NCBI GenBank assembly: GCA_963575745.1 | Contig: CAUYUJ010000238.1 | Location: forward strand, 1 to 64,000 | DNA: 64,000 nucleotides | Source of the DNA: Prorocentrum cordatum | Taxonomy: Eukaryota | Direction of reading: 5' to 3' | In this document: positions 374 to 49,684 of the stretch, in pieces | How the letters are laid out: the number at the start of each line of letters is the position of its first letter | How positions within the stretch are numbered: position 1 is the stretch's first letter | The notes under the pieces: generated by a model | The model's database searches: none | The model's input: the letters and a program-made list of their open reading frames with translations, nothing else | What the model was told of the DNA's origin: nothing | Program-made: the position numbers and the translations under genes

Positions 374-1651
374 TAGGGGGGGAGGAGGGCTCCACCGTGC
401 CATGCGCAGACCACTGGCACCCTCGCCGGCGCAGCACCGCCTTGCGTGCAGAAGTTGGCAAAATCATTTGCGTCGGCGGCTAGGCAGAGGGACTGCGCTG
501 GCGAGTAAAGCGAAACGGGGCATCGTGAGGCGAATTCGGCCACCATGCAGGAGGGAGGGAGCAGGGGGCGACGAGGCGACGTCCGAGGGAGAAGTTGTCA
601 AAAACACGCGCACACAAAAAAAACTGACACTCTTGCCCAGGACAACTCTTGCGTGTCGCCGAGCTAACGGCCCTGAAGGCTTTGGAAGCGCGAGCGCGGC
701 GATCGGCCGGCCCAGTAGGCCGGCAGCGGGCGAGGTGGTGTCCGTGAGCGCCGAGCGGGAGCGCAGGCGAGCGTTGCAGTGCATAGGAGAAAGCGGTGCA
801 GGAGAGATGTAGGTTGTGTAAGAGCAGCTGCATACATCACCACGGCCAGATACGCTGCATGGCAGAATCCCCTGGAGATGCGATTGCGTAAGACACCACG
901 GCATTTCAAAAAGAGATGGGCGAGGCCAGAATCGGGTCCGTTGGCCGCGCCGCCAGAATTGGCGAAGTGTTCACAGCCATGGCGATCTGCTCGCAGCGGA
1001 CCTGCTCATCGGAGATGACAAGAACGGAACTAGTGACCGCAAAGTGTGTGCGATGAACTTACCAGGTATGTCTGGCAATTCAACGGGCGAAGAACGGTAG
1101 AAAATAAACTGTTCCGCCGCCGGGGACGCCTGCCCCCCGGCCGGCGTGGAGGGCCGCACGGAGAAGCACGAGAGAAGGAGGCAGAGGAGGAGGAGGAGGA
1201 GGAGGAGGAGGAGGAGGAGGCAGGAGGAGAAAGGAAAGCGGAGCTAATAGGAAGGAGATAAGGGGAAGAGAGTTGAGGGGCGGAGGGGCTTAGGAAGTAG
1301 TCAGAGATGAATGCGGAGTATTCGTCCTTACTGGCTTCTTCTTCTTCTGTTAGCTATAGCTGCGTAGTCTTTATGATTTAGTGAGAACGCGTATGGAGGA
1401 GGAGGAGAGGACTGCCGGTAGTCTCGTCGGGCGCGCTTGGACGAGCAGGCTCGAGAGGGCTGCCACGCGCCGCGCGCGAGGTGCGGGCTCGGCAGCCGCC
1501 CGGGGACCCCCCTTTGCCCCTCCCGTTTAGATCCCCCGCCATCCCGCCGTTGACGTCCGCATACCCCTGGAGGAAATGCGAAGGTAGGAGCACGAGTGCA
1601 GCACTGCGAGGAGAGAAGCAGGGGGGGGCCATCGCGGCCAGAGCGCCACAG

Positions 1652-1700
1652 GCTAGTGGGCACGGTGGACCGCGCGGTGAGCGGCGGCGTCTACTTCGAG
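1652..1700 (+). CDS. Candidate exon A of a multi-exon S1/OB-fold-like gene (LVGTVDRAVSGGVYFE)
   Basis: ccacAG|G acceptor, GAG|GT donor, coding-like codons; joins in frame to 5689. Confidence 0.6.
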
Positions 1701-1828
1701 GTGGCTCCCCATGATCGCTTTCTTGGAGCGTCAAGTATTGAGGTTTTTCACGTGTGGTCTTCTGTTTCACGCTCGGCACGTGCTTGTCTGCATGTTTTTG
1801 TTCGCTGTCTTCCTCAATATTCATCATA

Positions 1829-2035
1829 CGGTCTGGAACGTTGGGATAGCGTGTCGCTCCGCCAGTTCTGGCCCACCGCGCTTCGGCGCCACACGCTATC
1901 CATTTCCCGGCCCCCCAGCGTCAACGTCCCGAGCCTTTCCCAGCCTCCCGCCTCGCTGAGCGGAGCGACACGCTATCCGACCGCAGGGCACAGCGTGTCG
2001 CTGGGGCCGACGCGCTGTGCAAAAGCTCCTGACCG
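1829..2035. mobile_element. MITE family C (TA-flanked, with AGCGTGTCGC/GCGACACGCT subterminal motifs)
   Basis: TA|CGGTCTGGAACGTT ... AAAAGCTCCTGACCG|TA; homologues at 37809-37974 and 48076-48289. Confidence 0.75.
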
Positions 2036-3057
2036 TAGGTCCATGCGCTTCTCCTCAGCATCACCTTGTCTTGCTAGCTCCGGCCTTGGGCAGGGTCGGG
2101 CTGAGCTCGCAGGGCTGACGGGGGGCCGGGAGGGGACTCGCGCCGATCGCCTGCGCAGCACGGAGGCGCGAGTCAATTGCCCCCCCCCCCTTCTCCGCGC
2201 AACGCCACTCGTCGGTTTGTGCTGCTGTCCGAGCAGGGGCAGGACTGCCGCACCAGGCAGGGCAGGGGCGGGGCAGGACACGGGGCGCGGCCCCGCCGGA
2301 CAGGCTGTGGCGCAGCACGCTCCTCGTTGTTGGCCGGCCCCGGTCGGCGTTCGCCCTGGTTGCCCCTGCCCGCGCTTCGGCTGGCCATACGCATGGGAAA
2401 GGAGGAGGAGGAGGAGAGGGAGGAGGAGGAGGAGGAGGAGGAGGAGGAGGAGGAGGAGGAGGAGAGGGAGGAGGGAGGAGAAGGCGGGGAGGAGGAGGAC
2501 CCTCTTCACCCGCAGCCGAGCAGGGCTGATCAGTTTCTTGCTCTTAGTTTCGGCTGTAGAAAAATGTTTACTCTTGGAGCCAGCTGGGGGCCAGAGGTGG
2601 CCCAGCACTGGTTCTGGCCAGCAGGAGGGGAGGGCAGGTTCGAGCTGCTGGGCTCGACAGGGGTCTCTGCTTATTTCGGCCCCCTGGGGGTCGCGTTCGG
2701 CCCTGGGACCGTCAAAAACGGATCTCGAGTGAAAAACCGCACTCGATGGACCCAGGGAGGCCCAGGGACCGATTTTGAGCGGACTTGCCCTTTATCCCCT
2801 TCTCTTGGCCGATTTTCCCGAAGTCATACTGCCGCCTTCAACGTTCATACCTCGAGTTCGACTTCAGAGGCGCGCGTCGTCGCCAGCCTCCACTGCCAAG
2901 CGACATGCCCTCCACGATCGACCACGGCAGCCGTTAGGGCCAGCTCCGGCCCACTGCGTCCGCATGCCGTCGCTCGACCGCTCATGGCCCAAGGGGGGCG
3001 GGCTCGCGCCAGCCACCCACGTCCAAGCCTATCGCGGTGTCGGCGGAGCGGGGCACT

Positions 3058-4165
3058 CCTCCTCCTCCTCCTCCTCCTCCTCCTCTCCTCCTCCCTCCTC
3101 CTCCTCCTCCTCCTCCTCCTCCTCCCCTCCTCCTCCTCCTCATCCTCCTCCTCCTCCTCCTCCTCCCTCTCCTCCTCCTCCTCCCCTCCTCCTCCCTCCT
3201 CCCCCCCTCTTCCTCCTCCTCCTCCTCCTCCCTCCTCCTCCTCCTCCTCCTCCTCATCGTCCTCCTCCTCCTCTTCCTCCTCCTCCCCTCCTCCTCCTCC
3301 TCCTCCTCCTTCTCCTCCTCCTCCTCCTACCTCCTCCTCCTCCTCCTCCGCCTCCTCCTCCTCCTCCTCTTCCTCCTCCTCCTCCTGCCCCTCCTCCTCC
3401 TCCTCCTCCTCCTCCTCCCTCCGCCTGGTCTTGGCTTCTGCTCCTCTCCTCCTCATCCTTCCTCCTCCTCCTCCTCCTCCTCCTACTCCTCCTCCTCCTC
3501 CTCCCTCCTCCTCCTCCTCTCCTCCTCCTCCTACTCTCCTCCTCCTCCTCCTCACTCCTCCTCCCACCTCCTCCTCCTCCTCCTCCTCCTCCTCCTCCTC
3601 CTCCTCCTCGCTCCTCCTCTTCCTCCTCCTCCTCCTCCTTCCCTCCTCCTCCTCCTCCTCCTCCTCCTCCTCCTCCTCCTCCTCCTCTTCCTCCTCTTCC
3701 TCTTTTCCTCCTCCTCAACATCATCCTCATCAATATCATCAGAATCATCATGATCAGATTCATCAGCAGCAGCAGCATCATCAGCATCATCATTAACATC
3801 ATCATCAGCAGCAGCATCATCAGCATAATCGTCATCAGCATCAAAATCATCATCGAAATCGTCATCAGCATCAAAATGAACATAATCGTCATCAGCCTCA
3901 TCAGCAGCAGCATCATCACCAGCATCGTCATCAGCATCATCATCATCAGCAGCAGCATCATCATCATCACTATCATCATCAGAATCATCATCGTCATTCT
4001 CCTGCTCCTCATCTTTCTCCTCCCACTCCTCCTACTCTTCCTCTTCCTCCTACTCATCTTCCTCTTCCTCCTCCTCCTCCTCCTCCTCCTCCTCCTCCTC
4101 CTCCTCCTCCTCCTCCCGCTCCTCCTCCTCCTCGTCCTCCTCCTCGTCCTTCTCTTCCTCATCCT
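3058..4165. repeat. (CCT)n-(CAT/CAG)n-(CCT)n compound microsatellite
   Basis: Direct inspection; similar CCT/GGA tracts occur throughout the window. Confidence 0.95.
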
Positions 4166-5011
4166 GCCTCTCATCCCGCTTTGACGTATCTTGTTCGCTT
4201 GAAGTTAGGCTCCAAGAGCATGGCAAGACATTGGATATGTCTCAGCTTTGGAAGGGTTGCTTCCTTGGGATGCGTGGCCTCTGGTTCTGTCCGCATCGTC
4301 CCCTCTGCTCTCCTCCTTCTGCCAAAATGGCGCGGGGGGGAAAATGTGATTCTCCTCCCCTCCCCTTCCCAGGATCGTGGGCGCACTCAAGGCGAGGATG
4401 TCAAGTGTCCTCGCCATTGGCTGCTTATGCTCACAGCTTGTCTTTGTTCTTCCTCACACGCACACACACAGCCCACTCCACGTGGTCGGCCTCGGTCTGC
4501 ATGGCGTCTTCAGAAACGATGCCCTCTGGCGTCTTTTCGCGGATTTCCGGGTTCCCCGGATCTCCGAGGAAAACACACACAACGAAAAACAAGAAAACAA
4601 AAAGACACCGGATGAGCTCGGCCCCTCTGGACCGCTCCGGGGTCCGGGACCCCAGGCCCGTCGCGGCCGCCTTTAGCCAGGGGTGAGCAGCTGGGCTGGG
4701 GAGAGGGGATTCCAGGCCTCCCAAGATGGTCCGGGCCTCCTACGCGATAGGGTCCGAGCAGATGGGGTCGGAGGGTCTTTCCGCATCGGCAATGCGTCGG
4801 CGATGTGGTGCCCGAATTCCTCCACGCCGACGTCGCCATCATGCCTCGCCCACGTCGCCGAGGCTTCGCTGGTGCAACGCCGATACATCGCCGAGGCATC
4901 GCCGATGCAGCGCCGTCCTCCGACCCCCCTTGCTCGGACCCTATCTAGGAGGCCTCTAGATGAGGTCCGAGTAGATGGGGTCGAAGGATCGCAGTGCCAG
5001 GACAGGGGTTA

Positions 5012-5240
5012 ATCGTTCCAGAGCGCCCCGGGGCGCTCCGAGAAGGCCGCGATCGCGGGACTGCTGGGCGGGGGGCCAGGACAGTGAGGCATCGTTCCAG
5101 GGCGCCCCGGGGCGCTCCGAGAAGGCCGCGATCGCGGGACTGTCGGGCGGGGGGCCAGGACAGGGAGACCTCGTTCCAGGGCGCTTCGCTTCGGGGCGCT
5201 CCGAGAAGGCCGCGATCGCCCGAGAGACGCCCTCCAGAAC
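5012..5240. repeat. About 80-bp tandem repeat, 3 copies
   Basis: TCGTTCCAG..GGGGCGCTCCGAGAAGGCCGCGATCGC is repeated three times. Confidence 0.85.
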
Positions 5241-5688
5241 GGCTGGGGGGGGGGGGGGGCTGTCTGACGTCCGTGCGCGCCCCGAGGCCGTGCCAGCCCC
5301 GGGCGCCCTACGGCGCGTGCTGGCCGAATGCCCGGCCCTCTGCCGACCGCCCTCGACAAAAAAAGCAGAGGAGCGGCGCGCGCGGGTCACATGGCCTGGC
5401 TCAGGCACCTCTGACGGGCGAGGGGCAGGGTCGAGGGTCGACCGTGTGTAGTTCGTCAGGAAGTCCGAGGCGTCCGAGGCGGTGCCCGTCCGAGGGGATC
5501 GAGCAGTCGAGGATCCCAGGGAAGGTCGTGGCATCGAGGCTCGAGTCAGGATCCTCCTCCTCCTCCTCCTCCTCCTCCTCCTCCTCCTCCTCCTCCTCCT
5601 CCTCCTCCTCCTCCTCCTCCTCATTCTCCTCCTCCTGGCTCGAGGATCAAGGGGTCGAGGGGTCGGGGATCGAGCGGCCCTCCCCGAG

Positions 5689-5763
5689 GTGGGCCTCATC
5701 GAGCCGGCGTTCGGGCCCGGCCTGTACCTGGACCGGGCCCCCAGCTCGTTCCAGCGCGGAGAG
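5689..5763 (+). CDS. Candidate exon B (VGLIEPAFGPGLYLDRAPSSFQRGE)
   Basis: cccgAG|G acceptor, GAG|GC donor, phase 0/0; a unique GC3-rich island between (CCT)n and (GGA)n tracts. Confidence 0.6.
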
Positions 5764-7544
5764 GCGGGCGGGCGGCGAGGAGGAGGAGCGGCAGGAGGAG
5801 GAGGAGGAGGAGGAGGAGGAGGAGGAGGAGGAGGAGGAGGAGGAGGAGGAGGAGGAGGAGGAGGAGAGGAGAGGTATGGAAGGACAAAAGGAGAGGAGGG
5901 AGGGATGGAGGGAGGAGAGGGGAGGAAGGAGGGAGGAGTAGGAGGAGTACGGAGGATAAGGGAGAGGAGGAGGAAAGAGAGGAGGGGAGAAAGGGGAGGA
6001 GAGGAGAGAGAGGAGGAGGGGGGGAAGATAGGAGGGGGCGGAGGGAGGAGGAAGAGGAGGACCCTCCATCTGTGATCATGTCTTGTTCATCCTCCTCTCC
6101 GCCCGCGACGTGCGAGGAAGAGGAGGACCCTCAGATCATGGCGTTGCATTTTTTCGCAACAGGCGTTTTCGCTCTGCTTCGGGCCCCGGGTCCCTCACAG
6201 ATCGATCCAGCTCGAAAAAACGGCGCAGAAAGATGGGGTTTACGGCTCGGGTCGTGATGTTTCACGATGTTGTATATTGTATGCAACGTCAGAGGAGGAA
6301 GTGGAGGAGGAGGAGGAGGAGGAGGAGGAGGAGGAGGAGGAGGAGGGGGAGGAGAGTTCGGCTGGCCCACGTGAGCCATTCCATCCCAACCTCTCCCTCG
6401 CTCCTGGCCGTTCATTTCCCCGCATGGCCACCGCCCACTGCCTGCCCCTCTGACCTTCACCTCCCACCTCTGGTGGTGGAGGGGATGGTGGGGCTGCATT
6501 ATTCGCGGGGGGAGGACCAGAAACCAATGCCATTGGCTGCCCTTGGCTAGGGCCGGGGCGGCCGGGGCCAGCTCCCTGCACGCGAGTGCCACCGCCATCA
6601 GTCTCAGAGCTCGCCATCAGCAGCCTAACTGCTCTACCAGCCAACACCCAGCCTCATGCCGCCGAGGTCCTGGCTTGGGAACCTTCCTCGAGCTTCTACC
6701 TCGCCACCTGCAACCCGTCCCGTCACCTGCGCCGCAGCCTGAACGTCTCTTCGCTTGCCACCTGTCGACGCTAAGGGGTGGGTTTAAGGCTCGAGGTGCT
6801 TGGGGGGTGGGGGGAGGAGAAGCGGGAGCCAACCTCTGGCCGCCCTTGGCCAGGGCCAGCCGCAGCCCTCAGCCTGCGCGCCGTGCACCTCTATTGCCTC
6901 GACCAACTTTTCCGCCAGGGAGCCACCCATCTCACACCGCCGGGGCTGCTGCTCGGCCACCTCCTCTCCTGTGCGCGGCGCTCCGCTGCGGCCGGAGGCC
7001 GGCAGCCATCTGCCCGTCGCCTAGCACTGCACGCACCCTGCATCGATCCGTGGGCGGGCACATGGACGCGCACGTTGAGCGGCGGGGTCGGGCGGGGGTG
7101 GGGGATCCATGCGGAGCCATTTTCGACCCGCGCCACACGCTGGCGCAAAAAACCTCCCCCTTACCCCGTAGGTCCCCCTGGGGGGAGCCCCTCATTCTCC
7201 CGCCTCCTCCTCCTCCTCCTCCTCCTCTCCTCCCTCCGTCCTCTCCATGCCCTCCCTTCCTCCTCCTCCCGTCTTCTCCTCCTCCTCCTCCATTACTCCA
7301 ATCTCCTACTCCTCCTCCTCTCCTCCTCCTCCTCCTCCCTCCTCCTCTCCTCCTCCTTCCTCCTCCTCCTCCTCCTCCTCCTCCTCCTCCTCCTCCTCCT
7401 CCTCCTCCTCCTCCTCCTCCTCCTCCGCAAACCTCCCCCTTACCAGGTGGATACCCCTGGGGGGGGGCGCGGGCCCAGCGTCGCCCATAGGAACGCGTCG
7501 CCCGCCTCGGCGGGCGAGGGCCACCTGGTCGTGACTGGGGGCCG

Positions 7545-8230
7545 TCCCTTCCTGGCACCCCGTGGGCGAGGGGGACGGGACCCCTGCGCCATCCTACCTT
7601 TCTGGCGAGCGTGGCCCCGGCCACGCTTGCACCCTGCGGCCCACCACCCTCCAGCGCCTCACCTCGCACTGCAGCGGCACCGCCCCTTCGGGGTACCTTG
7701 TGGGCGAGGGGGAGGGGACCCTGCGCCATCCTACCTCATTGGCGAGCGTGGCCCCGGCCACGCTTGCACCCTGCGGCCCACCACCCTCCAGCGCCTCACC
7801 TCGCACTGCAGCGGCACCGCCCCTTCGGGGTACCTTGTGGGCGAGGGGGAGGGGACCCCTGCGCCATCCTACCTCATTGGCGAGCGTGGCCCCGGCCACG
7901 CTTGCACCCTGCGGCCCACCACCCTCCAGCGCCTCACCTCTCACTGCAACGGCGCCGTCCCTTCGGGGTACCTTACGGGCGAGGGAGAGGGGCCCCCTGC
8001 GCCATCCTACCTTTTCAGCGAGCCTGGCCCCGGCCACGCTTGCACCCTGCGACCCACCACCCTCCAGCGCCTCACACATCGCACTGCAGCGGCGCCGTCC
8101 CTTCGGGGTACCTTGGGGCGAGGGGGAGGGGCCCCTGCGCCATCCTACCTTTTCAGCGAGCCTGGCCCCGGCCACGCTTGCACCCTGCGACCCACCACCC
8201 TCCAGCGCCTCACACATCGCACTGCAGCGG
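7545..8230. repeat. 138-bp tandem repeat, about 5 copies
   Basis: CCTGCGCCATCCTACCT recurs at 7583, 7720, 7858, 7996 and 8134. Confidence 0.9.
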
Positions 8231-9634
8231 CAGGCTTTTTTCTTCCCCCAGGACGTGCCCTACGGCGCTACGCACCCTGCCCCTCGTGCTCCGCCTGAGC
8301 CACCCCCACCCGCCGCCTGCCAACTACGCCGCCGCGCCCGTGCCGCCTCCCGCTTCCTGGCCTCGCCTCATCTGGTTACCGTTCAGTTGTTATGCTTCCG
8401 TCTCCCCCCCAGGGGCGTTGGGGGGCACAGCTGCAGCCGAAATCGACGAGCAGGACGGGTAGCCTTCCCAAGGGTACCCTTGCATCCTCCGTTTGGTCCG
8501 TCCTCAGCCACTTCCGATGGCCAGCCCCGCCCCAAGAAGCTTCGCGAGGGGCGTCCGAGGAGATCTTCTTAGGATCCTCTTGGGGTGTCGTCGGGATTTC
8601 ATAGCGGCCTAGGGGGCCTCTTGGAGCATATTGGGTGCCTCGGGGGAGCCTCTTGGAGGAGGAGGAGGAGGAGGAGGAGGAGGAGGAGGAGGAGGAGGAG
8701 GAGGAGGTGGGAGGAGGAGGGGGGGAGGAGAAGGGAGGGGGAGGACGGGGACGAGGACGAGCAGCACGGGGGGGGGGGGAGAAAGAAGAAGAAGAAGAAG
8801 AAGATGATGATGATGATGATGAGGAGGAGGAGGAGGGGGGAGCAGGGGCGGGGAAGCGAAGAGGAGAAGAAGGAGAAAGAGGAGGAGGAGGAGGAGGAGG
8901 TGGAGAAGACGGCAACGAGAACGAGGAGGAAGAAGCAAGGAAGGAGGACGGAGAAATAAGGAAGCAATAGGGACAGAAGTAGAGAGAGAGAGAGAGGAAG
9001 GAGGTAGGACGGAGGAGGGAGGTCCGGGGGGGAGAGGAGGCTAGAGGGGAGAGAGGAGGAAGATCGGACGAGGGAGATCCATGGAAGGGGGGGAAGGGAG
9101 GCAGGAGGGAGGGAAAACGATAGACGAAGCAATAAGGAGTATTTGTGGTGGCCGAAACAGTGGGGGCAGTAGGGTGTTAGGACAGGGGCCGTCTCTCGCG
9201 AGGCGTTGGAGGGATTGGGTCGCGTAGGGGGGTTGAGCTCGGCGTGCGCGGGCAGTCCGGCGCGGTGGCGCGGAGAGGGCGGTGCTTATTCTGCGGACTC
9301 GGGGCACGGAAGAGGGAGGAAGATGCCCGCCACCTTTTCCGCCATCTCTCTATCTCCTCCCTCCCTCTCCCTCTTCCTCCTCGTCCTCATCCTCCTCCTC
9401 CTCCTCGTCCTCCTCCTCATCCGAATTGTCTCTCCTCATCATCATCATCATCCTTCCTTCTCCTCCTCCTCCTCCTCCTCCTCCTCCTCCTCCTCCTCGT
9501 CATCATCAGCATCATCAGCAGCAATGTCAGCGCCATCAACATCATCATCAGCAGCAGCATCATTCCCATCATCATCAACAACATCATCAGCATCATCATC
9601 AGCAGCAGCACCATCATCATCATCATCGTCGTCG

Positions 9635-9704
<70 letters not shown>

Positions 9705-10503
9705 AAGCAGCAGCATCAGCATCAGCATCAGCAGCAGCAGCAGCAGCATCAGCATCATCCTGTTCCTCCATCTCCCTCCTCCTCTCCCTCCTCCCCCGTC
9801 CTCCTCATCGGATCCTCCTCCTCCTCCTTCTCCTCCTCGGATCTTCCTCCTGACGTGCATGAGGAGGAACAGCGGGATGTGGGGTGGAGGGGGGGTGGGG
9901 GGGGGGGGGGGCAGGCCCCATGTTGCCACCTTGCCTGGCCCCTCGCTCGAGTCTCCAAAGAAGGGGCCGCGGTCGCGCCCGGAGCGGAGGGGGGGGGGGG
10001 GGGGGGCTCCACCAACCTCAGGATGATAATGAGAGGAGGAGGAGGAGGAGAGGAGGAGAGGAGGAGGAGGAGGAGGGAGGAGGCGGAGGAGAAGAGGAGA
10101 GAGAGAAGAGGAGGAGGACGACGACGACGTGGACAAAGCGGAGGAGGTGAAGGAGGAGCAGGAGGGGAGGAGTTCGTCTTCCCCTCCTCCTCCTCCTCCT
10201 CCTCCCCTCCTCCTCCTCCTCCTCCTCCTCCTCCCCTCCTCCTCCTCCTCCTCCTCCTCCTCCGCCTCCTCCTCCTCCTCCTCCCTCCTCCTCTTCCTCC
10301 CCTCCTCCCCTCCCCCTCCCTCCCCCTCCCCCATCCCCTCCCCCTCCTCTCCCCCTCCCATCTCGCCTCCCTCCCTCCTTCACTGCCTCCACCGTCCCCT
10401 CACCCACCTCCTCCGATGTCTACCCGCCCTTCTCTTCTCCCCCCCCCCCTCCCCTTCCCTCCGCTCCCTCGCCCCCCAGCGCCCCCGCGATCCGGGGACG
10501 GAG

Positions 10504-10566
10504 GCCGTGGACCTGGTGGTGGTCAGCAGCGACAAGGAGATACTGGTCACCAACAGGCCGCAGGAG
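10504..10566 (+). CDS. Candidate exon C (AVDLVVVSSDKEILVTNRPQE)
   Basis: ggAG|G acceptor and GAG|GC donor (alternative CAG|GA at 10563); completes an S1-like C-terminal half 'F..GE.V.L.VV..D'. Confidence 0.6.
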
Positions 10567-11458
10567 GCGCCGCGCAGGGGTGCCGCCGAATCTGTTGGAT
10601 CGGGCGGCGTTGGCCGCGTGGTGCCCCATGCTTCTGGGGCACCTGCCCCCTGATCTGTCGATCTGGCGTCTACGCGCCAGATCCACGGATCCGTGGTCCA
10701 TGTTATAGCGCGCGCCCGTAAGCCAGATAGTTTTTCGAGCGATGGGATGCAGGGGGCCAGATTGTTTGGGCACAGACGTTGCGGCATGTGTTGTCTGAAG
10801 GCCTGTGTCTCTCTGGCACGGCTTCCTGTCGATCGCAGGTCGCATCTAACCTTGTCCGCCCGCTTTATGTCTGCCGTGGCGCGTTCGTTCGGTCATTGAC
10901 GCTTCCGCTTGCTATCCGCAAGTCCGTTGATGTGCAGGCATCGGATGTGCATATACATGTCTTCTGGTGGTATCGTCCAATCGAATACTGATCATACCAA
11001 GCGGCGTCCCGCGCTCCTGCGTACACTAGCATGAAAGGGCGATAGGAGGCGGCAACCAGAACACATGTCCCCACGTGTTGAAATGGCAGACCTGGATCAG
11101 CGACGACATGAGCCATGGTTTATGTTGCGTGCGTTGGGAATCCGAGTCAATTGGTTGATTATCCAAGGGGATCGCTACCAGCCTTTGGCCAAAGTCATGG
11201 AGGTGTCATTGAATGATGTCTTTCATGGACCTATGATTCCAGGTAGCCAAGCTTGGCTTTATGACTGTGTACACACCCTGACGACGTGGTATGCAGAATG
11301 TCTACCAGTCACCCTGTTCCCAGGGTTGGCCGCCCGTGCATATCACCCCGCCGCCGCTGCACGAATACGCATCACGTGATCGTATCGTGGTTACCTCTCG
11401 CTCTCTCTCTCTCTCTCTCCCTCTTTCGCTCCCTCGCTCTCTCTCTCTCTCTCTCTCA

Positions 11459-11489
<31 letters not shown>

Positions 11490-12108
11490 TCTAACTGTCT
11501 CTGTTTATCTTATGTGTATATATATATACATACATACACATGTGTGTGTCTGTGTCGTCGGGCCGTGTGTGCGTGTCGGCGTCGTAGACTGGGGATACAG
11601 ATATACAGATACGCACATATACTTATATACATATATATGTATATGTGCACATGCATACAGACAGACAGACAGACAGGCAGACATACATACACGTATATAC
11701 ATATAGACACACAAAGGTATGTGTGCGTGTATCCCCCTTCGTGGGGGCGTGCCCCACTTTCCCGCACGCCCGCGCCCCCTCTCCACGCCGCTGCCGACGC
11801 AGAACGCAGGACCTTCCACAGTGCCGGCTCCAGGGGGGGGGGGGGGGCCTTCTGCTGGCCGCTTGACCCGCACACAGACGACCCGCGAGGACAGAGCAGT
11901 CTTGAGGAGGAGCCGAGAGAATTCTGGGCCCGCCTCGTGAAAAATACGGTCGAGCATATGATGGCGAAACCTCCTCCCGAAAGGCTCGGTCCACGTTTCA
12001 TAATCCATGTTCTGGGGACCTGGCCCAATGTCTCGAGCACGTTCGCCCCTCCTGCGAGAGCAGAAAAGCTGGTTTCTGTGAAGGGGCTTATGAAAAAATC
12101 TAGCCTTA

Positions 12109-12271
12109 AGTCGGGCATGTCCCTCTACAGGAGGGACATTCGAAAGTAGTAAATAACAAAAAGAAGCCTGGGGACGATGTTTGACATAATTGTGTTTGTT
12201 TTTCTTTTTCTGGCATGTAGTTTGAGTTAAGTTGTCGCCCAAGATCCCCCCGTAGGGGGACAGGCCCGACC
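12109..12271. mobile_element. MITE family A, reference copy (Tc1/mariner-type, TA-flanked)
   Basis: TA|AGTCGGGCATGTCCCTCTACAGGAGGGA ... TCCCCCCGTAGGGGGACAGGCCCGACC|TA. About 27-bp imperfect TIRs around an AT-rich noncoding core. Confidence 0.85.
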
Positions 12272-12533
12272 TAAAACTAGCCCAGGCGTCTTAAGTCATG
12301 GCTTGTTTGACCATACCTTCGGCCGTATGACGTCGGAGGTCTGGGGGCGTCGACCGACGAGCCGACGGCCTGCGAGCCTCGTGCCGGTGCTGGCGCAGCG
12401 TCCAGCAGCGCGGCGAAGGCCAGCGGGGCGGCCACCTGCCGGGGGACGCCTGCGCGCCGTGCCACCGACCCAGAGCTCGAGTAGCCCGATACACCAGAGG
12501 CACATCAGCCAAGGAGGCGGAGTGCCAGCATAA

Positions 12534-13231
12534 AGTTGGGCGTGTCCCTCTACAGGAGGAGTATTCGAAAATAGTCAAAAATTATCCCAGTGCGACCCTA
12601 CCTGGGAGTTGGAGCCCCTAGGAAAGCAGCATTAGTAGTAACAGTAAAGCTGAACTAGAGCTAAGCTAAAGCTAAGCTAAAGCTAGGCTAAAACTAAGCT
12701 CAAGCTAAACTAAAACTAAGCTAAAGCTAAGCTAAAGCTAAGCTAAAGTTAAGCTGAAGCGAAGCTAAAGCTAAGCTAAAGCGAAGCTAAAGCTAAGCTA
12801 AAGCTAAGTTAAAGCTAAGCTGAAGCTAAGTTAAAACTAAGCTAAAGCTAAGCTAAAGCTAAAGTAAAGCTAAGCTAAAGCTAAGCTAACGCTAAGCTAA
12901 AGCTAAGATACAACTAAGGTCAAGCTAAGGTAAAGCTAAGCTAACGCTAAGCTAAAGCTAAGCTAAAGCTAAGCTAAAGCTAAGCTAAAGCTAAGCTAAA
13001 GCTAAAGCTAAAGCTCCCAGGGGACTGGGGGGAACCGCTCCCAGGGGACGGGGGGAACCGCCCGGGGCGCTTTCCACTGCCCGGCCCCTTTAAGCTAGAG
13101 AGTAAGAACCCTTCTAGGCAGAGCCTAGGTAGGGAAATAGTCTGGGGATGATGTTTTTTTTATATGTATTGGGTATCTTTGGGTATTTTTTTTTTCGCCG
13201 AAAATCCGCCTGTAGGGGGACACGCCCAACC
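12534..13231. mobile_element. MITE family A copy carrying a nested satellite-filled element
   Basis: TIRs AGTTGGGCGTGTCCCTCTACAGG / CCTGTAGGGGGACACGCCCAACC; core interrupted at 12582-13134. Confidence 0.8.
12582..13134 (-). mobile_element. Non-autonomous Helentron/DINE-1-like element with an (AAGCTAAGCTA)n core, copy 1
   Basis: Asymmetric 11-bp subterminal IRs (CCCTACCTGGG 12596-12606 / CCTAGGTAGGG 13124-13134), terminal hairpin CTAGGC-AGA-GCCTAG, insertion in an A/T run with no visible TSD; second copy at 25218. Confidence 0.6.
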
Positions 13232-14180
13232 TGATGCCAGCAGGTTCGGGGGGCGGCCAAGAGGGGGGTTGATGACAGGGGGGGGGACCTCCTGGCCAGG
13301 GCCAGGATATCTGCCCCGACTTCGTGGGCCCCTTCTCCTGACTATGTCAGAGCGTCCCCGGCCCCCCCACCCCCCCGGGCCGCGCACGTGCCCAGGCCAT
13401 GATTCGCGACCTCCCTTGCCCTGGACGGCCCCGACAGATGCCCCACGGAGATTTCATATCCCCCGATGGCCCCCAGGGCCCACAGAAGCTCTGGGGCGCC
13501 TCCTCCTCCTCCTCCTCCTCCTCCTCCTCCTCCTCCTCCTCCTCCTCCTCCTCCTCCTCCCCCTTCCCCCTCCTCCTCCTCCTCCTCCTCCTCCTCCTCC
13601 TCCTCCTCCTCCTCCTCCTCCTCCTCCTCGTCCCTCCTCCTCCTCCGCCTCCTCCTCCTCCTCCTCCTCCTCCTCCTCCGCCTCCTCCTCCTCCTCCTCC
13701 TCCTCCTCCTACCTCCTCCTCCTCCTCCTCATCCCCCTCCTCCTGACCACCGCCGCCGCCCGGCGCCGCCCGCCTGTTCTTGTTCTCCTTCGCCGCCCCA
13801 GGCTCCGAGGGGCCCTGGCTCCGCCGGAGCCCCGCCGGGGGCGCGATCGGATGGGGGGGGGGGCGCGGCGGGCACGCGCGGGCCGCGGGGGGCACGTATC
13901 AGAGATCCTGGGGCACAGCATTAGGCGAGGAAAAGGAGGAGGAGGAGGAGGAGGAGGAGGAGAGAGGAGGAAAGGAGGAGGGAGGAGGAGGAGGAGGAGG
14001 AGGGGGACGGGGAGGAGGAGGAGGAGGAGGAGGAGGAGGAGGAGGAGGAGGAGGAGGAGGAGGAGGAGGAGGGGGAGGAGGAGGAGGTCGCCCGGGCCGC
14101 CGCCGCGGCACGCCGAGCACCAGATGCCGCGCTCGCCGCCCCCGCGCGCTGCGCGGGCCTGCGGCCGCCCCCCGCGGCAG

Positions 14181-14228
14181 GCCGTCGACGCGCTCGTCGA
14201 GCTGACCGGCCTCATGACCAGCGCCGAG
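14181..14228 (+). CDS. Candidate exon D (AVDALVELTGLMTSAE)
   Basis: ggcAG|G acceptor, GAG|GC donor, phase 0/0, all codons end in G/C. Confidence 0.55.
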
Positions 14229-14271
14229 GCTGGCCGCGGCGCGCTGAGCCTCGAGCTAGGCCGCGGGGGGC

Positions 14272-19042: not shown

Positions 19043-20416
19043 TCGTGGCCACCTTCGGCGACACAAGCCTGGCTCACGGGCGCCCTTCGCACGCGGGAGC
19101 CCCGTCCAGCCGCAATGCTTCACATGGGTCGGCGACCGGGTCGAAGTCGGCGAACTGGTCGAGGGCCGTTGCCTGTGCGCTGCGAGGCTCAGCCAGGAGC
19201 TCCGCCAGGCGCCAAGACGGCCCAAGCCGCGCTGCCCACGAGGCGACTCCAGGCCCCCAACAGCGTCCCCAGGTGGCCCTGGCAGCGCTGGCTGGCCTCA
19301 ACAGGCCCCCCGAGCCCCGCGCAGTGAGAAACGCCGGCTCCCGGCAGTCTGTGTTGCGCGGCGACGGCGAGGGCGAAAGAGAGAACGAGAAGCAACCGGA
19401 CGACGGCGAGCGCGCGGGCGGGAGGCGAGAGGGCCGGCGGGTTCAAGCAGGCGGGCTGCCAGGTGCCAGGGCCATTGGCTCCCGCGCCGAGCAGGCGGCG
19501 AGAGGCGCCCGGCAGACTCGGGTGCTGGATCGGCGCTGCTGGCGTGTACTTGGCCGAAGGACACCCTCGCCGCCGATCGCACGGACTCGTCGAGGCCCCA
19601 CGGCAAGGCGGGGTCCGCGAGAGGCACGCCACGCTCATGGAGGACGCCCGCGGGCGGTCGTGCAGCCAGGGGGCCATCCTCTTGCGTCAGGGCCGCATCG
19701 CCTTCTGCGGGCGGGCACCCACGTCGCTTGCCAGGCGCGCGGGCCCACTGGATCCAAGTGGGGCGGCGGGAGTACGACTGAGTTGTGCGACTCCAACGCG
19801 TTCGCCAGCGAATCGAACCAACGTTAGCTCTGGGTCGTGTGCTTCGCAACTGTGACCCGCACAAGCCATCGGCTCTGATCGGACATTGGATTGATTTGCA
19901 TGTCGGAGGTGAAGAGAGTGCAGCTGGTTGGGCTTCCCGAAGCTGTAGCTTCCCATATAGTCTCGGGGGTCCCCCTTGCTCGATGGAAGACGCCTTGGGC
20001 CTGTGGCCTCTGGTGTTTGAACGCTTTCAGAGTGATCTCTCAATGCTCAGGAGGGAAAAAAACACACAGACACAATTAATCGACGATCCCCAGGAAAATA
20101 TGGGAAAATATGGGAAGTGGGGGGGAAGACAGAAACCCAGAAAATATGGGAAAATATGGGGACTATTTTTATTTGTGTGTATTTATTTGTGTGTCCTAAT
20201 TTCCCTTTAAATGCCAGGGTCTGCGACCGTGCCCTCAGCGCCGCATTGGCACAAAGCCTGGAAGCCCGCCGGCGCACGGCGGCCAAGGCCGAGGTGCCGC
20301 GCAGCGACAGGTGCCTGCAGCGGGAATGCGCGGGCACTTGCTCCGACCGCAGGAGCGCTGGGTCAGCATCGCCGGCAGCAGCACCATCGCCGCCACCGCC
20401 GCCGTCGTCCCCATGT

Positions 20417-20436
20417 GTAGCCCCGTTGGGCTCAAG
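20417..20436 (+). other. Relict dinoflagellate spliced leader (DinoSL-like)
   Basis: GTAGCC-CCGTTG-GGCTCAAG versus the DinoSL 3' part GTAGCC-ATTTT-GGCTCAAG. It lies 33 nt upstream of the ATG of an intronless gene. Confidence 0.65.
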
Positions 20437-20469
20437 GCAGGACGCCGCCAGGTCAGCTCTACTGCCCCC

Positions 20470-22020
20470 ATGGCTGTGGGCGCCACCGCCATCGCTGACC
20501 CCAGCAGGCGTGGGAGAAGGTCCCTGGCGGCCGCGCTGTCGCTGCTGGCACCGCTGGTCGCGCTGCGCGGGCCTGTCGCGCTCGTTGGCGGGGCCCCACC
20601 CCCGGCCCGCTGCGCCAGGCCCGGGCGGGCGGCATCGGCAGCGGACCGCACCGGCTCTCGCCTGGAGGCTCTGCGGGTGGCCGTGGTGGGCGCGGGGCCG
20701 TCGGGGCTCCTGCTGGCGCACCGCCTGCTGGCGGCCGGTGCCACGGTCGACGTGTTCGAGGGGCGCTCCGACCCGCGGGGCAGCGAGGCGGCGTTGGAGG
20801 GCCGCGCGTACGCCCTCGGCCTGGGCATCCGCGGGCGCACGGCGATCCGCACCGCTGGGGACGACCTGTGGGACAGCATCAAGCCCAAGGGCTACGGCAG
20901 CGAGAGGTTCCAGCTGCACCTGCCCTTCGGCCCCGTGGACCTGAGGACACCAGAGGATGGCGACGGGCTGGAGCCGAGCCTGCTCATCTACCAGAGCGAC
21001 CTCTGCGGGGCGATGCTGGATCAGCTGGAGAGGCGCTACGCCTCCTCCGGGCGGCTGCGGACTTGCTTCGGGGCGAATGTGAAGTCGGTGGACGTGGCTG
21101 CCGGAACGGTGACACTCTCAGAGCCAGATGGTGGCAGCAACATGTTCGGGCCGGTTGACATCGTCGCGGGTTGCGACGGCGTCAATTCAGTGGTGCGGGC
21201 CAGCGTGGAACAGGCTTGCTTTGGATTCACCGTGCAGAAGAAGCCGCTGCCAGGTTTCCTCAAGGTCTTGCGGTTCCCAAAGATGCCGACTGCCTTGGAA
21301 CCTACGGCCGTGCACGCCATCCCTGGCAAGGGCGGCTCGTCCGCTTTCATAGAGCCCACAGCGTTTGGCGCCTGCGCCCTCATCAACTGGCGCGACTCTC
21401 CGACAGAGCCAGACGCGGCCGAAAAGGGCAAGGGCGTGGACTGGAACAAGCTCGACGGCCCCGCGGAGGCGCGCGAGGCGCTGCGTAGCGCTTTCCCGCT
21501 GCTGGATGACGTGCTGGACGACGAGGCCGGCAGGCAGTTCGTCCAGCAGCAGCCCTCGAAGTCCGCCACTCTCAAGTGCAACACCTACCACCACGCCAAG
21601 GCTGTCCTGCTTGGGGACGCGGCCCACTCCACCGGGGGGGCCAGCGGCCAGGGCTGCAACTCGGCGCTGCAGGACGCCGCGGTGCTGGCGGACTTGCTGA
21701 TCGACGGCCCAGGCGACGTCTCGGGGGCCCTGAGGCGCTACTCTCTGCAGAGGGTGCCCGAGGGCCAGGCACTGCTCGAGCTGTCCCTGGGGCCGGGCGA
21801 AGACGTGAGCCCTCCGCAGCGCGTTCTCTACGGCCTGGCCCAGGCGGTAGGCAACGTGCTGAGCCGCTTCGGCATCGGCGAGCAGACGATGCAGACGAAG
21901 CTCACGACCACGCTCACTCCGGTTGCCCAGATCAGGCGCGAGCGCGATTTTTATTTTGGCAATTTTCCTTCCGACAAGGAGTTTGAGCAGTCCATCGTTG
22001 CCCTGGAGGCCAGCGGATAG
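20470..22020 (+). CDS. FAD-dependent monooxygenase, kynurenine 3-monooxygenase-like (class A flavoprotein hydroxylase), intronless, 516 aa, possible N-terminal organelle-targeting extension
   Basis: Uninterrupted ORF with GC3-rich codons. Rossmann motif RVAVVGAGPSGLLLAHRL..VDVFE, KMO-like GRAYALGLGIRGRTAI, DG motif DIVAGCDGVNSVVR and GD motif VLLGDAAHSTGGASGQGCNSALQDA. The ATG at 20470 is preferred over 20311 because it is the first ATG after the relict SL. Confidence 0.88.
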   Translation: MAVGATAIADPSRRGRRSLAAALSLLAPLVALRGPVALVGGAPPPARCARPGRAASAADRTGSRLEALRVAVVGAGPSGLLLAHRLLAAGATVDVFEGRSDPRGSEAALEGRAYALGLGIRGRTAIRTAGDDLWDSIKPKGYGSERFQLHLPFGPVDLRTPEDGDGLEPSLLIYQSDLCGAMLDQLERRYASSGRLRTCFGANVKSVDVAAGTVTLSEPDGGSNMFGPVDIVAGCDGVNSVVRASVEQACFGFTVQKKPLPGFLKVLRFPKMPTALEPTAVHAIPGKGGSSAFIEPTAFGACALINWRDSPTEPDAAEKGKGVDWNKLDGPAEAREALRSAFPLLDDVLDDEAGRQFVQQQPSKSATLKCNTYHHAKAVLLGDAAHSTGGASGQGCNSALQDAAVLADLLIDGPGDVSGALRRYSLQRVPEGQALLELSLGPGEDVSPPQRVLYGLAQAVGNVLSRFGIGEQTMQTKLTTTLTPVAQIRRERDFYFGNFPSDKEFEQSIVALEASG

Positions 22021-31686: not shown

Positions 31687-31733
31687 GTTCGCGCCTCGCG
31701 GAGGCGGCGGCGGCGCCGGCGCCGGCGTGCGAG
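31687..31733 (+). CDS. Candidate exon (SRLAEAAAAPAPACE)
   Basis: cagcAG|G acceptor and GAG|GC donor; ends in phase 0, compatible with the 35159 exon. Confidence 0.35.
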
Positions 31734-34726: not shown

Positions 34727-35158
34727 CAGGATCATCCAGGACGGGCGATCAGTTTGTTGGATGGATCTCTCAAGCTCTCCACCGCCCCAAGCGCTGTGCT
34801 GCCGTCCGCCGCCTCAAGCGGGGTGCGTGGTCAGAGCTGGAGCACAGCAGAGCCACAGGAAAGGCGTGGCACTGACAGCGTAGCTCCGCACATGCGTCAA
34901 ATGCTCTGGCGAACAGGAGCACAGCACAGCACAGCAAGCACGCGAGCAAGAGCACAGGAAGCACACATGTGTCAGATGCTCCAGCGACTGGGCGGCCGAT
35001 TGGGCGAGTGCTGGCGCAAACCACAGAGCCCTCCCCCCGCCCGCAGAGAAGGCCCCGAGCTGCTGCCCCGGTGCCGCCTTCTCCCTCGCCGCCCCTCACC
35101 TCGGAGAGCGAAGCCCGAGCGACTCCGGGGCCGAGAGCCACGCGCCCGCCCTGCGCAG

Positions 35159-35200
35159 GCGCCCGCGGGCGCGCCGGAGGGCACCGTGGGCAGGCTGGAG
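35159..35200 (+). CDS. Candidate exon (APAGAPEGTVGRLE)
   Basis: cgcAG|G acceptor, GAG|GC donor, phase 0/0. Confidence 0.4.
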
Positions 35201-41552: not shown

Positions 41553-42234
41553 TACGTCGGGGGGGGGGGCGCAGCGTCCCATGGAGAAGTGGACGAGTAA
41601 ACAGACATTATGGGTTCGTCGCCGCCGCCGTCGAGGCTTGGCAGGCCGCAGCCAGCGACCCAGACGAGAAACGCTGGTTTTCTTGATCGTCCATGCGCAG
41701 CCTGTGTCCCAATCGTTTGGTCGAGGTTCTTGCCTTGTGGCTCCTCGAGCGACACCGCCCAGGTCACGCGCTTCGGCGTCTTCTGCTACGTGGGCGCAGA
41801 GCAGGACGCGCTTCTGCCCACGAGCCAGATGTCCAGGCCCCCTCGGGCCCGCCGCAGCTTTGCTGCGGGGCTCGGCCGGCCATCACGCGGTCGGTGTCGG
41901 GGCACCCAGAATGTTCGAGGTTCGAGCTTCCCAGTCATGCGACGTCCTGAATTTGTTGATACCGTCAAGACGCTGAAGTAAGAACCACGTTGGACCACGT
42001 TGGTTTCAGGAGAGGAGCTTCATGCCGTGGAACGTGTTTGTGGCCTAGGTTCCGCCATGGCCAGGAAAGTCCCCTCTCTCCTTATTTTGCGTTTATCTGC
42101 GCCGTCGCCGCTTCGGTGGGCAGCGCTTTCTCAGATAGCAAGATCACGAAGCCGTTAGGGCAACCTCGCGAGCCACGCCGCTGGCGCACGAGACCAAGAC
42201 AAACCCGTGGGTTTCGGGCGGGGCGCCGCCGCGC

Positions 42235-49582: not shown

Positions 49583-49684
49583 GATCACCGAGATCGACCA
49601 GGTGCTCGGGCGGCTGTCGCTGTCCGACCGCCTGCTGGTCTCGGAGTTCTCCCTGGGCCAGCGGGTCTCGGGCCGCGTGACGAG
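49583..49684 (+). CDS. Candidate exon containing an S1-domain-like start (ITEIDQVLGRLSLSDRLLVSEFSLGQRVSGRVT)
   Basis: cccgAG|G acceptor, AG|GC donor, strongly GC3-biased. FSLGQRVSGRV resembles the S1 N-terminal motif (L/F)xxGxxVxGxV. Confidence 0.55.

What the first reader, a model, noticed from the sequence alone, without database searches (positions are those of the whole stretch)
1652..14228. Hidden gene: four micro-exons 3.6-4.7 kb apart splice in frame into an S1/OB-fold-like domain
Exons 1652-1700, 5689-5763, 10504-10566 and 14181-14228 give LVGTVDRAVSGGVYFE|VGLIEPAFGPGLYLDRAPSSFQRGE|AVDLVVVSSDKEILVTNRPQE|AVDALVELTGLMTSAE. This follows the S1 pattern (GtV...GvfvdiG...af...F..Ge.V.v.V...d). 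Every exon ends in GAG, every next exon starts with G, and the donors are GT, GC, GC, GC. This fits known dinoflagellate splice preferences. The ORF track misses the gene entirely.
Basis: partly seen in the sequence, partly recalled or inferred. Interest (0 to 1): 0.72.

Follow-up and report, generated by a model that had tools for sequence, protein, structure and literature searches.

The report
Unannotated S1-domain exons of dinoflagellate gene
Three of the four proposed tiny exons really do join into an RNA-binding S1 domain, but they are the missing upstream part of a very long, already partly annotated gene of the dinoflagellate Prorocentrum cordatum, built in the way that is normal for this genome.

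Summary
The four peptides and their splice motifs are in the sequence as described.

A generic S1 profile built from E. coli gave the joined peptide only 2.2 bits. That test was too weak.

The same strand holds a real S1 gene at 39.6-63.1 kb. It is the public P. cordatum model CAK0789463.1 (264 aa), which maps at 100% over every HSP part inside an inferred exon.

Its dinoflagellate relatives are 700-1200 aa proteins with about eight S1 repeats. A profile of 191 of those repeats scores exons 1-3 joined at 30.2 bits.

That score is 41.5 bits, against at most 28.4 in 67 null sequences.

The domain falls on repeat 4 of the family profile, in the same order as the annotated exons, which cover repeats 5 (end) to 7.

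Exon 4 is no better than chance.

No RNA evidence could be obtained.

Verdict: this is a real but ordinary gene-model extension. Micro-exons, kilobase-scale introns and GC/GA donors are the norm in this genome (PMC10666404).

The parts
679..705 (+). Tentative 27-nt exon before exon 1. It would give the 'GD' end of the linker and the first two bases of the Arg codon that G1652 completes.
   Evidence: The all-phase spliced alignment at penalty 5 adds 692-705, joined in phase 2 to 1652. There is an AG|G acceptor at 677-78 and a CG|GC donor at 706. The evidence is weak: the piece is dropped at penalty 8.
1652..1700 (+).
   Evidence: Peptide and sites. 18 of 149 family proteins give weak tblastn hits here. 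It is part of the best chain in the traced spliced-alignment runs with family profiles.
5689..5763 (+).
   Evidence: The best 2-exon chain of the region ends here at 30.3 bits, equal to the forced exon 1 to exon 2 score. Family profile states 353-377. On its own it draws no in-frame tblastn hit; the single overlapping hit among 149 relatives is in another frame.
10504..10566 (+). The donor could equally be CAG|GA at 10564, which would remove one codon.
   Evidence: The best 3-exon chain ends at 10504-10563 with 41.5 bits. Family profile states 378-398. A repeat-4-specific 'GE.. DL.V' motif runs across the exon 2|3 junction.
14181..14228 (+).
   Evidence: It ranks 21st of 1597 scored open phase-0 candidates between 10567 and 27235. 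35 of the 2113 listed candidates end in GAG|GC, as it does. It draws 1 hit of 149 relatives, at E 7.5. It lowers the chain score from 41.5 to 31.7 bits. The 27.2-27.4 kb exon already supplies the linker and first strand of repeat 5.
20200..22017 (+). 606-codon open frame for an FAD-dependent monooxygenase. It lies inside the gap (putative intron) between exon 3 and the repeat-5 exons.
   Evidence: Pfam FAD_binding_3, 5.3e-19, 69.1 bits. First Met at codon 43.
27314..27405 (+). Probable exon for the first half of S1 repeat 5. The true 5' end may be the phase-0 acceptor at 27230 or 27236.
   Evidence: 26 of 149 family proteins hit 27242-27427. The all-phase alignment gives 27314-27405 with a GC donor. 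Acceptors are listed.
27543..27589 (+). Probable exon for the middle of S1 repeat 5. Its junction to 39622 is unresolved, because in frame it would need a GG...AG intron.
   Evidence: 7 of 149 family proteins hit here. Found by the all-phase alignment. Its length matches the family alignment.
34976..35200 (+). First exon of the public gene model (Arg/Pro-rich, 75 aa). Probably a prediction artefact or an alternative 5' exon.
   Evidence: P0240 aa 1-75 map here at 100%. No tblastn cluster of four or more of the 149 relatives lies here. It joins onto the tail of an S1 repeat.
39622..39744 (+). Exon a: the end of S1 repeat 5, the linker, and the start of repeat 6.
   Evidence: P0003 and P0240 map here. 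Acceptor GAG|G after a (CTC)n tract; donor AGG|GC.
41763..41836 (+). Exon b: the core of S1 repeat 6.
   Evidence: 29.2 bits unspliced against the E. coli S1 profile, where the null maximum is 17.3. 98 of 149 relatives hit here. P0003 match 93% over an HSP whose two mismatches lie outside the inferred exon. Sites CAG|G and AG|GC.
46988..47032 (+). Exon c: S1 repeat 6.
   Evidence: GA donor, phase 2.
49583..49684 (+). Exon d: the end of repeat 6 and the start of repeat 7.
   Evidence: 100% identity to P0003 over 35 aa. GC donor.
58130..58226 (+). Exon e: the core of S1 repeat 7.
   Evidence: 54 of 149 relatives hit here. GA donor.
63015..63053 (+). Exon f: S1 repeat 7. I infer the end at GAC|GT; the alignment ran to 63056. 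The gene continues beyond the window.

Best explanation
Exons 1652-1700, 5689-5763 and 10504-10566 (or -10563) are real coding exons. Spliced together they encode the fourth S1 (OB-fold) RNA-binding repeat of a long nuclear gene of Prorocentrum cordatum.

The gene runs along the + strand of the whole window and out of both ends. After repeat 4 come probable repeat-5 exons at about 27.3-27.6 kb. Then come the exons of the public 264-aa model CAK0789463.1 at 39.6-63.1 kb, which cover the end of repeat 5 and repeats 6 and 7.

The public model is therefore truncated at its 5' end. Its relatives in other dinoflagellates are 700-1200 aa proteins with about eight S1 repeats. They carry an N-terminal presequence of the plastid type and a conserved C-terminal region.

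My inference is that the product is a plastid-targeted multi-S1 RNA-binding protein distantly related to bacterial ribosomal protein S1. It would bind single-stranded RNA with a string of OB folds.

Shown here: the homology, the matching order of repeats, and the splice motifs. Inferred: that all these exons are joined in one mRNA, the targeting, and the function. Exon 4 is probably not part of the gene.
For: 1. Family profile. Exons 1-3 joined score 30.2 bits (E 1.5e-11, Z=1) against a profile of 191 S1 repeats taken from 33 relatives plus P0003.

2. Full-length family profile. The same peptide scores 21.9 bits with one placement, at states 337-399, which is repeat 4.

3. blastp. 74 of 149 representatives match at E<=10. 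The best is P0084, 44% identity over 66 aa, E 8e-12.

4. Unbiased recovery. The 3-exon score is 41.5 bits, against at most 24.7 in 15 natural nulls and at most 28.4 in 52 simulations. The all-phase version gives 25.5 against at most 19.9 at penalty 8, and 31.6 against at most 24.6 at penalty 5.

5. Same order as the family. The best path of the 890-state family profile over the whole + strand scores 131 bits. It starts at exon 1 (state 336) and runs through the six exons fixed by P0003/P0240 (states 459-624).

6. Repeat-4-specific motifs run across both proposed junctions.

7. The splice pattern equals that of the six protein-fixed introns of the same gene and the genome-wide figures: GC 51.4%, GT 24.7%, GA 23.8%, AGG acceptor 79.7%, mean intron 4709 bp (PMC10666404 Table 2, passages read).

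8. GC3 is 0.95 for exons 1-3 and 0.91 for the protein-fixed exons. This is weak evidence, because background candidates average 0.80 +/- 0.18.

9. Exon a begins with the tail of an S1 repeat, so the annotated gene must continue upstream.
Against: 1. There is no RNA evidence.

2. No protein in the 5.8-billion-sequence collection holds exon 1's peptide. No metagenome contig matches its degenerate DNA pattern.

3. A generic S1 profile from 13 E. coli domains gives only 2.2 bits, while held-out real domains give 9.5-78 bits.

4. Under the diffuse 890-state profile, exons 1-3 alone score 23.7 bits. That lies within the null range of 19.4-25.9.

5. Exons 2 and 3 alone draw no in-frame hit from the 149 relatives (1 out-of-frame hit and 0).

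6. A complete same-strand FAD-monooxygenase frame lies between exon 3 and the repeat-5 exons. Its processing could separate the upstream exons from the annotated gene.

7. The repeat-5 part of the model is weak, and its join to exon a needs a non-canonical intron.

8. The repeat assignment differs from expectation in 8 of 15 relatives. In some of these, repeat 4 was not in my domain list.
Confidence: 0.8

Rival explanations
1. The three pieces descend from S1 repeat 4 but are no longer part of a working full-length gene. The locus would have been split, for example by the FAD-monooxygenase gene and repeats, or it would be one of many partial duplicates. In that case the upstream exons are relics or belong to a separate transcript, and the 264-aa model (or a short isoform) is what is expressed.
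For: The public model starts at 34976 with its own ATG exon. An intact same-strand ORF lies at 20200-22017. The public protein and the metatranscriptome-derived P0003 both end at the same residue, where relatives go on into repeat 8. The join between the repeat-5 exon and exon a is non-canonical. No database protein holds exon 1.
Against: All three exons are open and in phase, with good splice motifs and GC3 of 0.95. The domain is complete and keeps the repeat-4 signature. The annotated first exon has no counterpart in relatives and is joined to the tail of an S1 repeat, which makes no structural sense.
Confidence: 0.15
2. Chance. In 62% GC DNA that is open in all frames, four short pieces that loosely resemble S1 can always be found.
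For: There are 1213 candidate internal exons in 14 kb. Other S1-like scraps occur, for example at 735-775 and 38985-39022.
Against: 0 of 67 null sequences come near the family-profile score, 41.5 bits against at most 28.4. It is placed on repeat 4, in the right order relative to a verified gene on the same strand.
Confidence: 0.03
3. One reading: a stand-alone hidden gene made of exactly these four exons, including 14181-14228.
For: Exon 4 is open and in phase, with AG|G and GAG|GC sites and GC3 of 1.0. Linker exons need not be conserved.
Against: Exon 4 ranks 21st of 1597 scored candidates. It lowers the chain score. The next exon at 27.2-27.4 kb already provides the linker and first strand of repeat 5. 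78 aa with no start codon is not a gene. The domain is repeat 4 of a longer protein.
Confidence: 0.04

Closest known systems
Public gene model CAK0789463.1 / UniRef100_A0ABN9PBW3, 'S1 motif domain-containing protein', Prorocentrum cordatum (P0240, 264 aa)
   Same: It is the same locus and strand. Every part of its HSPs that lies inside an inferred exon maps at 100% to window 34976-35200 and exons a-f; whole HSPs that run into introns are 73-100% identical. Pfam S1 scores 54.8 bits with two stretches.
   Different: It starts with an Arg/Pro-rich exon that has no counterpart in relatives. So it holds 2 S1 repeats plus the tail of a third, where relatives have about 8.
Dinoflagellate transcriptome proteins with about eight S1 repeats: P0074 (EukProt EP00930_Biecheleria_cincta_P048910, 954 aa), P0227/P0229 (MMETSP, 939 aa), P0071, P0076 and others
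   Same: They share S1 repeats in the same order. P0003 aligns to repeats 6-7 at 33-37% identity.
   Different: They are known only as intron-free transcript contigs of about 2.9 kb. Their N-terminal presequence, repeats 1-3, repeat 8 and C-terminal region lie outside this window or were not found in it.
Bacterial 30S ribosomal protein S1 (bS1)
   Same: It also has tandem S1 OB-fold repeats. It gives the best named hits for P0003 among proteins of 302-2000 aa: 67 proteins at 27-34% identity, best E 5.1e-10.
   Different: From recall, bS1 has up to six repeats and no targeting presequence. The dinoflagellate family also has a conserved non-S1 C-terminal region that bS1 lacks, which I infer from the consensus; Pfam finds only S1-type domains in P0071. 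Identity is too low to claim orthology, and no ribosome association was tested.
Rrp5/PDCD11-type multi-S1 proteins of eukaryotes
   Same: They have many tandem S1 repeats. Pfam S1_RRP5 gives a secondary hit on P0076 (1.1e-9).
   Different: That hit lies under the stronger generic S1 hit. The HAT/TPR repeats of Rrp5 (from recall) do not appear among the Pfam hits for P0071, P0076 or P0084. The N-terminal presequence points to an organelle, not the nucleolus (inference).

Membership tests
S1 RNA-binding domain (Pfam PF00575) | Score at or above the curated 22-bit cut-off of PF00575 | not testable with these tools
   The joined peptide exists only inside my scripts and may not be typed into the Pfam tool. 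Each exon with its flanks gave 0 Pfam families at E<=10: 6 of 6 queries were empty.
S1 RNA-binding domain (Pfam PF00575) | Match to a generic S1 profile built without the dinoflagellate family | tested here: not met
   My profile of the 13 E. coli S1 domains found by PF00575 gives exons 1-3 joined 2.2 bits. Held-out real domains score 9.5-78 bits, in 13 of 13 cases.
S1 RNA-binding domain (Pfam PF00575) | Significant homology to domains that are themselves recognised as S1 | tested here: met
   30.2 bits, E 1.5e-11, against 191 repeats that were picked by the E. coli S1 profile. The orthologous repeat 4 of P0076 scores 26.7 bits on PF00575. That of P0071 scores 21.2, just under the 22-bit cut-off. 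Repeat 4 is therefore a divergent S1.
S1 RNA-binding domain (Pfam PF00575) | Five-stranded OB-fold beta-barrel | not tested
   Structure prediction accepts only unspliced window translations, so the joined domain could not be folded.
Dinoflagellate eight-S1-repeat protein family (P0071, P0074, P0076 and others) | Placement on the full-length family profile, in the same order as the rest of the gene | tested here: met
There is a single placement at states 337-399.
Dinoflagellate eight-S1-repeat protein family (P0071, P0074, P0076 and others) | N-terminal bipartite presequence, repeats 1-3, repeat 8 and the conserved C-terminal region | not testable with these tools
   These parts would lie outside the 64-kb window, and no whole genome is held. 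The public protein stops at the start of repeat 8.
Dinoflagellate spliceosomal introns | GT/GC/GA donor and AG acceptor followed by G | tested here: met
   All three introns between exons 1-3 and the next exon fit. So do the six protein-fixed introns. Genome-wide frequencies are in PMC10666404 Table 2.
Dinoflagellate spliceosomal introns | Junction-spanning RNA reads | not testable with these tools
The listed runs hold only 0.05-0.08 of the sampled words.
Bacterial-type ribosomal protein S1 | Orthology to bS1 and association with the small ribosomal subunit | tested here: inconclusive
   There is only 27-34% identity to bacterial S1 over one or two repeats. No tree was built, and association cannot be tested here.

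The most novel reading that the evidence does not exclude
The locus is one very long gene. It spans more than 62 kb within the window and probably well over 100 kb in all. It would encode a plastid-targeted protein with about eight S1 repeats, from a dinoflagellate-specific and unstudied family with its own conserved C-terminal region.

Two further points would follow. A complete FAD-monooxygenase gene would sit on the same strand inside one of its introns of about 17 kb. The public gene model would have been cut short because one intron (27590 to 39621) has a non-canonical GG...AG boundary that the annotation pipelines do not allow.
Probability: 0.3. Interest if true: 0.45.

Novelty: new member of a known kind. 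Interest (0 to 1): 0.3.

Why it matters
The result shows that a public gene model in a 4-Gb dinoflagellate genome is truncated by at least 33 kb and two S1 repeats. It also shows that homology-guided spliced alignment with family-specific profiles can recover 48-75-nt exons that ORF tracks and generic domain profiles miss.

The protein family itself has apparently not been studied. It has about eight S1 repeats and a plastid-type presequence. A 2026 review states that specific studies of dinoflagellate S1 proteins are virtually absent (PMC12787238, passages read). The family may take part in plastid RNA handling or translation.

The gene architecture is not surprising. It is the average for this genome.

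Tried and rejected
- Pfam scans. 150 long open frames gave nothing in 1-16000. Six exon contexts gave 0 hits.
- RNA genes. Rfam gave 0 hits and tRNA scanning gave 0.
- Generic E. coli S1 profile. It first led me to call the finding chance. I rejected that conclusion after family profiles became available.
- Sequencing runs. 24 runs were listed, all holding small shares of 0.05-0.08 of the words, probably microsatellite words. None was laid, so they count as no evidence.
- Exon 1 peptide. A protein search with its context among longer proteins found none. A degenerate DNA pattern for it in metagenome contigs gave 0 matches. A related-loci search with P0003 confirmed no locus.
- Extending exon 1 in frame to a GAG|GT donor at 1743.
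- 38985-39022 as the end of repeat 5. There is no S1-like continuation.
- 735-775 ('VVSVSAERER') as the end of repeat 3. It is in the wrong order.
- The fillers 12556-12589, 25961-26020 and 29173-29226 in the whole-window path. They are weak or low-complexity and I do not claim them.
- Earlier notes of this scan, searched by place, sequence and words. Nothing was found for this window.

Full report
**1. The observation**

Exon 1 is in frame from 1653. All four pieces have an AG|G acceptor. Their donors are GAG|GT, GAG|GC, GAG|GC and GAG|GC.

The setting made me suspicious. The window is about 62% G+C and crowded with (GAG)n, (CCT)n and (TCA)n arrays. It is open in most frames. The + strand of 1001-15000 alone offers 491 AG|G acceptors, 948 G|G[TCA] donors and 1213 open phase-0 internal exon candidates of 45-120 nt. 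Splice motifs and open frames therefore prove nothing here.

**2. First tests, which pointed to chance**

Pfam found nothing in 150 long open frames within 1-16000. Its only convincing hit in the window is an FAD-monooxygenase frame at 20200-22017. The six exon contexts gave no family even at E<=10.

The joined peptide may not be typed into the Pfam tool. I therefore built my own S1 profile from the 13 S1 domains that PF00575 finds in E. coli K-12. The joined exons 1-3 scored 2.2 bits. Held-out real domains scored 9.5-78 bits in 13 of 13 cases.

I then wrote a profile-to-genome chain search. The best chains in every other 14-kb piece, on either strand and even in reversed sequence, scored 17-25 bits. 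On that evidence the finding looked like chance.

**3. A real S1 gene on the same strand**

The same scan threw up an outlier. On the + strand, 41760-41837 scored 29.2 bits unspliced, where the null maximum was 17.3. It has a CAG|G acceptor and an AG|GC donor.

A protein search with its 47-aa context found P0003. This is a 172-aa protein from a 1148-nt contig, 93% identical over the match, with Pfam S1 at 57.1 bits. tblastn lays P0003 on six + strand exons:
- 39622-39744
- 41763-41836
- 46988-47032
- 49583-49684
- 58130-58226
- 63015-63053

The introns between them are 2.0-8.4 kb. All acceptors are AG|G. The donors are GC, GC, GA, GC, GA and probably GT, and the phases are mixed.

P0003's cluster holds P0240. 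This is CAK0789463.1, 'S1 motif domain-containing protein' of Prorocentrum cordatum, 264 aa. Over every part of its HSPs that lies inside an inferred exon it is 100% identical to the window; whole HSPs that run on into introns are 73-100% identical. Its first 75 residues (Arg/Pro-rich) lie at 34976-35200, and the rest are the six exons.

So the window is P. cordatum DNA. Earlier notes of this scan had guessed a dinoflagellate. Part of an S1 gene is already annotated here.

**4. Reversal**

An exhaustive search with P0003 found 793 relatives at E<=0.001. The best are 700-1200 aa proteins with 5-13 S1 repeats. Among them are a Biecheleria cincta transcript and MMETSP transcripts, all on contigs of about 2.9 kb.

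P0003 corresponds to their repeats 6 and 7. That leaves about 500 residues upstream, for which the public P. cordatum model has no counterpart.

tblastn of 149 representatives against the window gave + strand clusters at all five larger protein-fixed exons (9-98 proteins each). Noise on the other strand reached 8 proteins. Exons 2, 3 and 4 alone drew 1 (in another frame), 0 and 1 hits.

I then built a profile from 191 S1 repeats of 33 relatives plus P0003. Exons 1-3 joined scored 30.2 bits, E 1.5e-11 at Z=1.

I reran the chain search with this profile on 1001-15000 (+). The best 2-exon chain ended in 5689-5763 (30.3 bits). The best 3-exon chain ended in 10504-10563 (41.5 bits). That call reports only the last exon of each best chain; the traced runs described below return all three exons.

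The 15 natural null sets were minus strands and reversed sequences of five partly overlapping pieces. They reached at most 24.7 bits at any depth. The 52 Markov simulations of the region reached at most 28.4.

It scored 25.5 bits against nulls of at most 19.9 at penalty 8, and 31.6 against at most 24.6 at penalty 5.

**5. Which domain it is, and whether it is one gene**

Against an 890-state profile of 14 full-length relatives, the joined peptide has one placement, at states 337-399, with 21.9 bits. That is repeat 4.

A spliced alignment of that profile to the whole + strand gave a best path of 131 bits. The path begins at exon 1 (state 336) and passes through exons 2 and 3. It crosses repeat 5 on weak pieces. 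It then recovers all six protein-fixed exons with their exact boundaries (states 459-624). That recovery serves as a positive control for the method.

One result goes the other way. Under this diffuse profile, exons 1-3 alone score 23.7 bits, which is inside the null range of 19.4-25.9. The significance therefore rests on the sharper repeat profile and on the matching order.

In the other 8 it does not, in some because repeat 4 had not been picked up in my domain list.

blastp gives 74 of 149 representatives at E<=10. The best is 44% identity over 66 aa, E 8e-12.

Repeat 4 is a divergent S1 even in relatives. On PF00575 it scores 26.7 bits in P0076 and 21.2 in P0071, against a cut-off of 22. 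This explains why generic profiles fail on the window's copy.

**6. Exon 4 and repeat 5**

Between 10567 and 27235 there are 2113 open phase-0 exon candidates, and 35 of them end in GAG|GC. Exon 4 ranks 21st of the 1597 that could be scored. Adding it lowers the chain score from 41.5 to 31.7 bits.

The open frame at 27230/27236-27405 already carries the linker motif and the first strands of repeat 5. After a 137-nt intron, 27543-27589 follows. Exon a then begins with the tail of repeat 5. The lengths match the family exactly.

Exon 4 is therefore not needed and has no support. An unconserved linker exon still cannot be excluded without RNA.

The join from 27589 to 39622 keeps the frame only with a GG...AG intron. 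I leave this unresolved. It might explain why the public model stops short and uses an unrelated first exon.

**7. How it most likely works**

Shown: homology, matching order, and splice motifs.

Inferred: the exons are joined by the ordinary dinoflagellate spliceosome into one long mRNA. The published P. cordatum genome paper reports the following figures (PMC10666404, Table 2, passages read):
- mean intron length 4709 bp
- donors GC 51.4%, GT 24.7%, GA 23.8%
- AGG acceptors 79.7%
- genome G+C 59.7%

Full-length relatives begin with a signal peptide, an FVAP-like motif, a second hydrophobic stretch and an Arg-rich stretch. From memory, this is the class I plastid presequence of peridinin dinoflagellates (Patron et al. 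2005, not read here).

Their nearest named relatives are bacterial ribosomal protein S1, at 27-34% identity.

I infer a plastid-targeted, multi-OB-fold protein that binds single-stranded RNA, with a role in plastid translation or RNA processing. A 2026 review says that specific studies of dinoflagellate S1 proteins are virtually absent (PMC12787238, passages read).

**8. What remains open**

No RNA evidence could be had. No database protein or metagenome contig carries exon 1.

A complete same-strand FAD-monooxygenase frame lies in the 16.7-kb gap after exon 3. The public protein and P0003 both stop where relatives enter repeat 8. A split or decaying locus therefore stays a live rival, at about 15%.

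**9. Verdict**

Its core reading is right for three of the four exons: micro-exons that splice into an S1 domain. But it is not a separate hidden gene. It is the unannotated upstream part of an annotated, truncated gene, and its architecture is typical for this genome.

Interest is modest. The result is a gene-model correction and a pointer to an unstudied family of multi-S1 proteins.

Noticed in passing
window 20200-22017 (+): A 606-codon uninterrupted frame with an FAD-dependent monooxygenase domain (Pfam FAD_binding_3, 5.3e-19). It is the only long ORF in the window with a convincing Pfam hit. It sits on the same strand inside the putative 16.7-kb intron of the S1 gene. It could be a nested or retroposed gene.
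   Followed up: partly
window 34976-35200 (+): The first exon of the public model CAK0789463.1 is Arg/Pro-rich and has no counterpart in relatives. It is spliced onto the tail of an S1 repeat. It looks like a gene-prediction artefact or an alternative 5' exon.
   Followed up: partly
window 27589/27590 and 39621/39622 (+): Joining the probable repeat-5 exon to exon a in frame requires an intron that begins GG and ends AG (or begins GT and ends GG). The published annotation pipelines allowed only GT, GC and GA donors.
   Followed up: no
beyond window end (protein P0003 / P0240 C-terminus): The public protein and the metatranscriptome-derived fragment both end at the same residue, just where relatives start S1 repeat 8. 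The short contig carries about 630 further bases. This could be a retained intron or a genuinely shorter isoform.
   Followed up: no
window 52001-58000, N run 52306-52405: A block of 38-41% G+C with strong GC skew (about -0.5 to -0.57) and an assembly gap. It lies inside the 8.4-kb intron between exons d and e. Its composition is quite unlike the rest of the window, so it is probably an inserted repeat or element.
   Followed up: no
   Followed up: no
window 39325-39615: A long (CTC)n/(CTG)n pyrimidine-rich microsatellite lies directly upstream of the acceptor of exon a. Similar arrays lie within roughly 50-150 nt upstream of exons 2 and 3. Microsatellites may be serving as polypyrimidine tracts here.
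   Followed up: no
relatives P0071-P0088, C-terminal ~150 aa: Full-length relatives share a conserved non-S1 C-terminal region, rich in Pro, Trp and Lys. Pfam found only S1-type domains in the two full-length relatives scanned (P0071, P0076).
   Followed up: no
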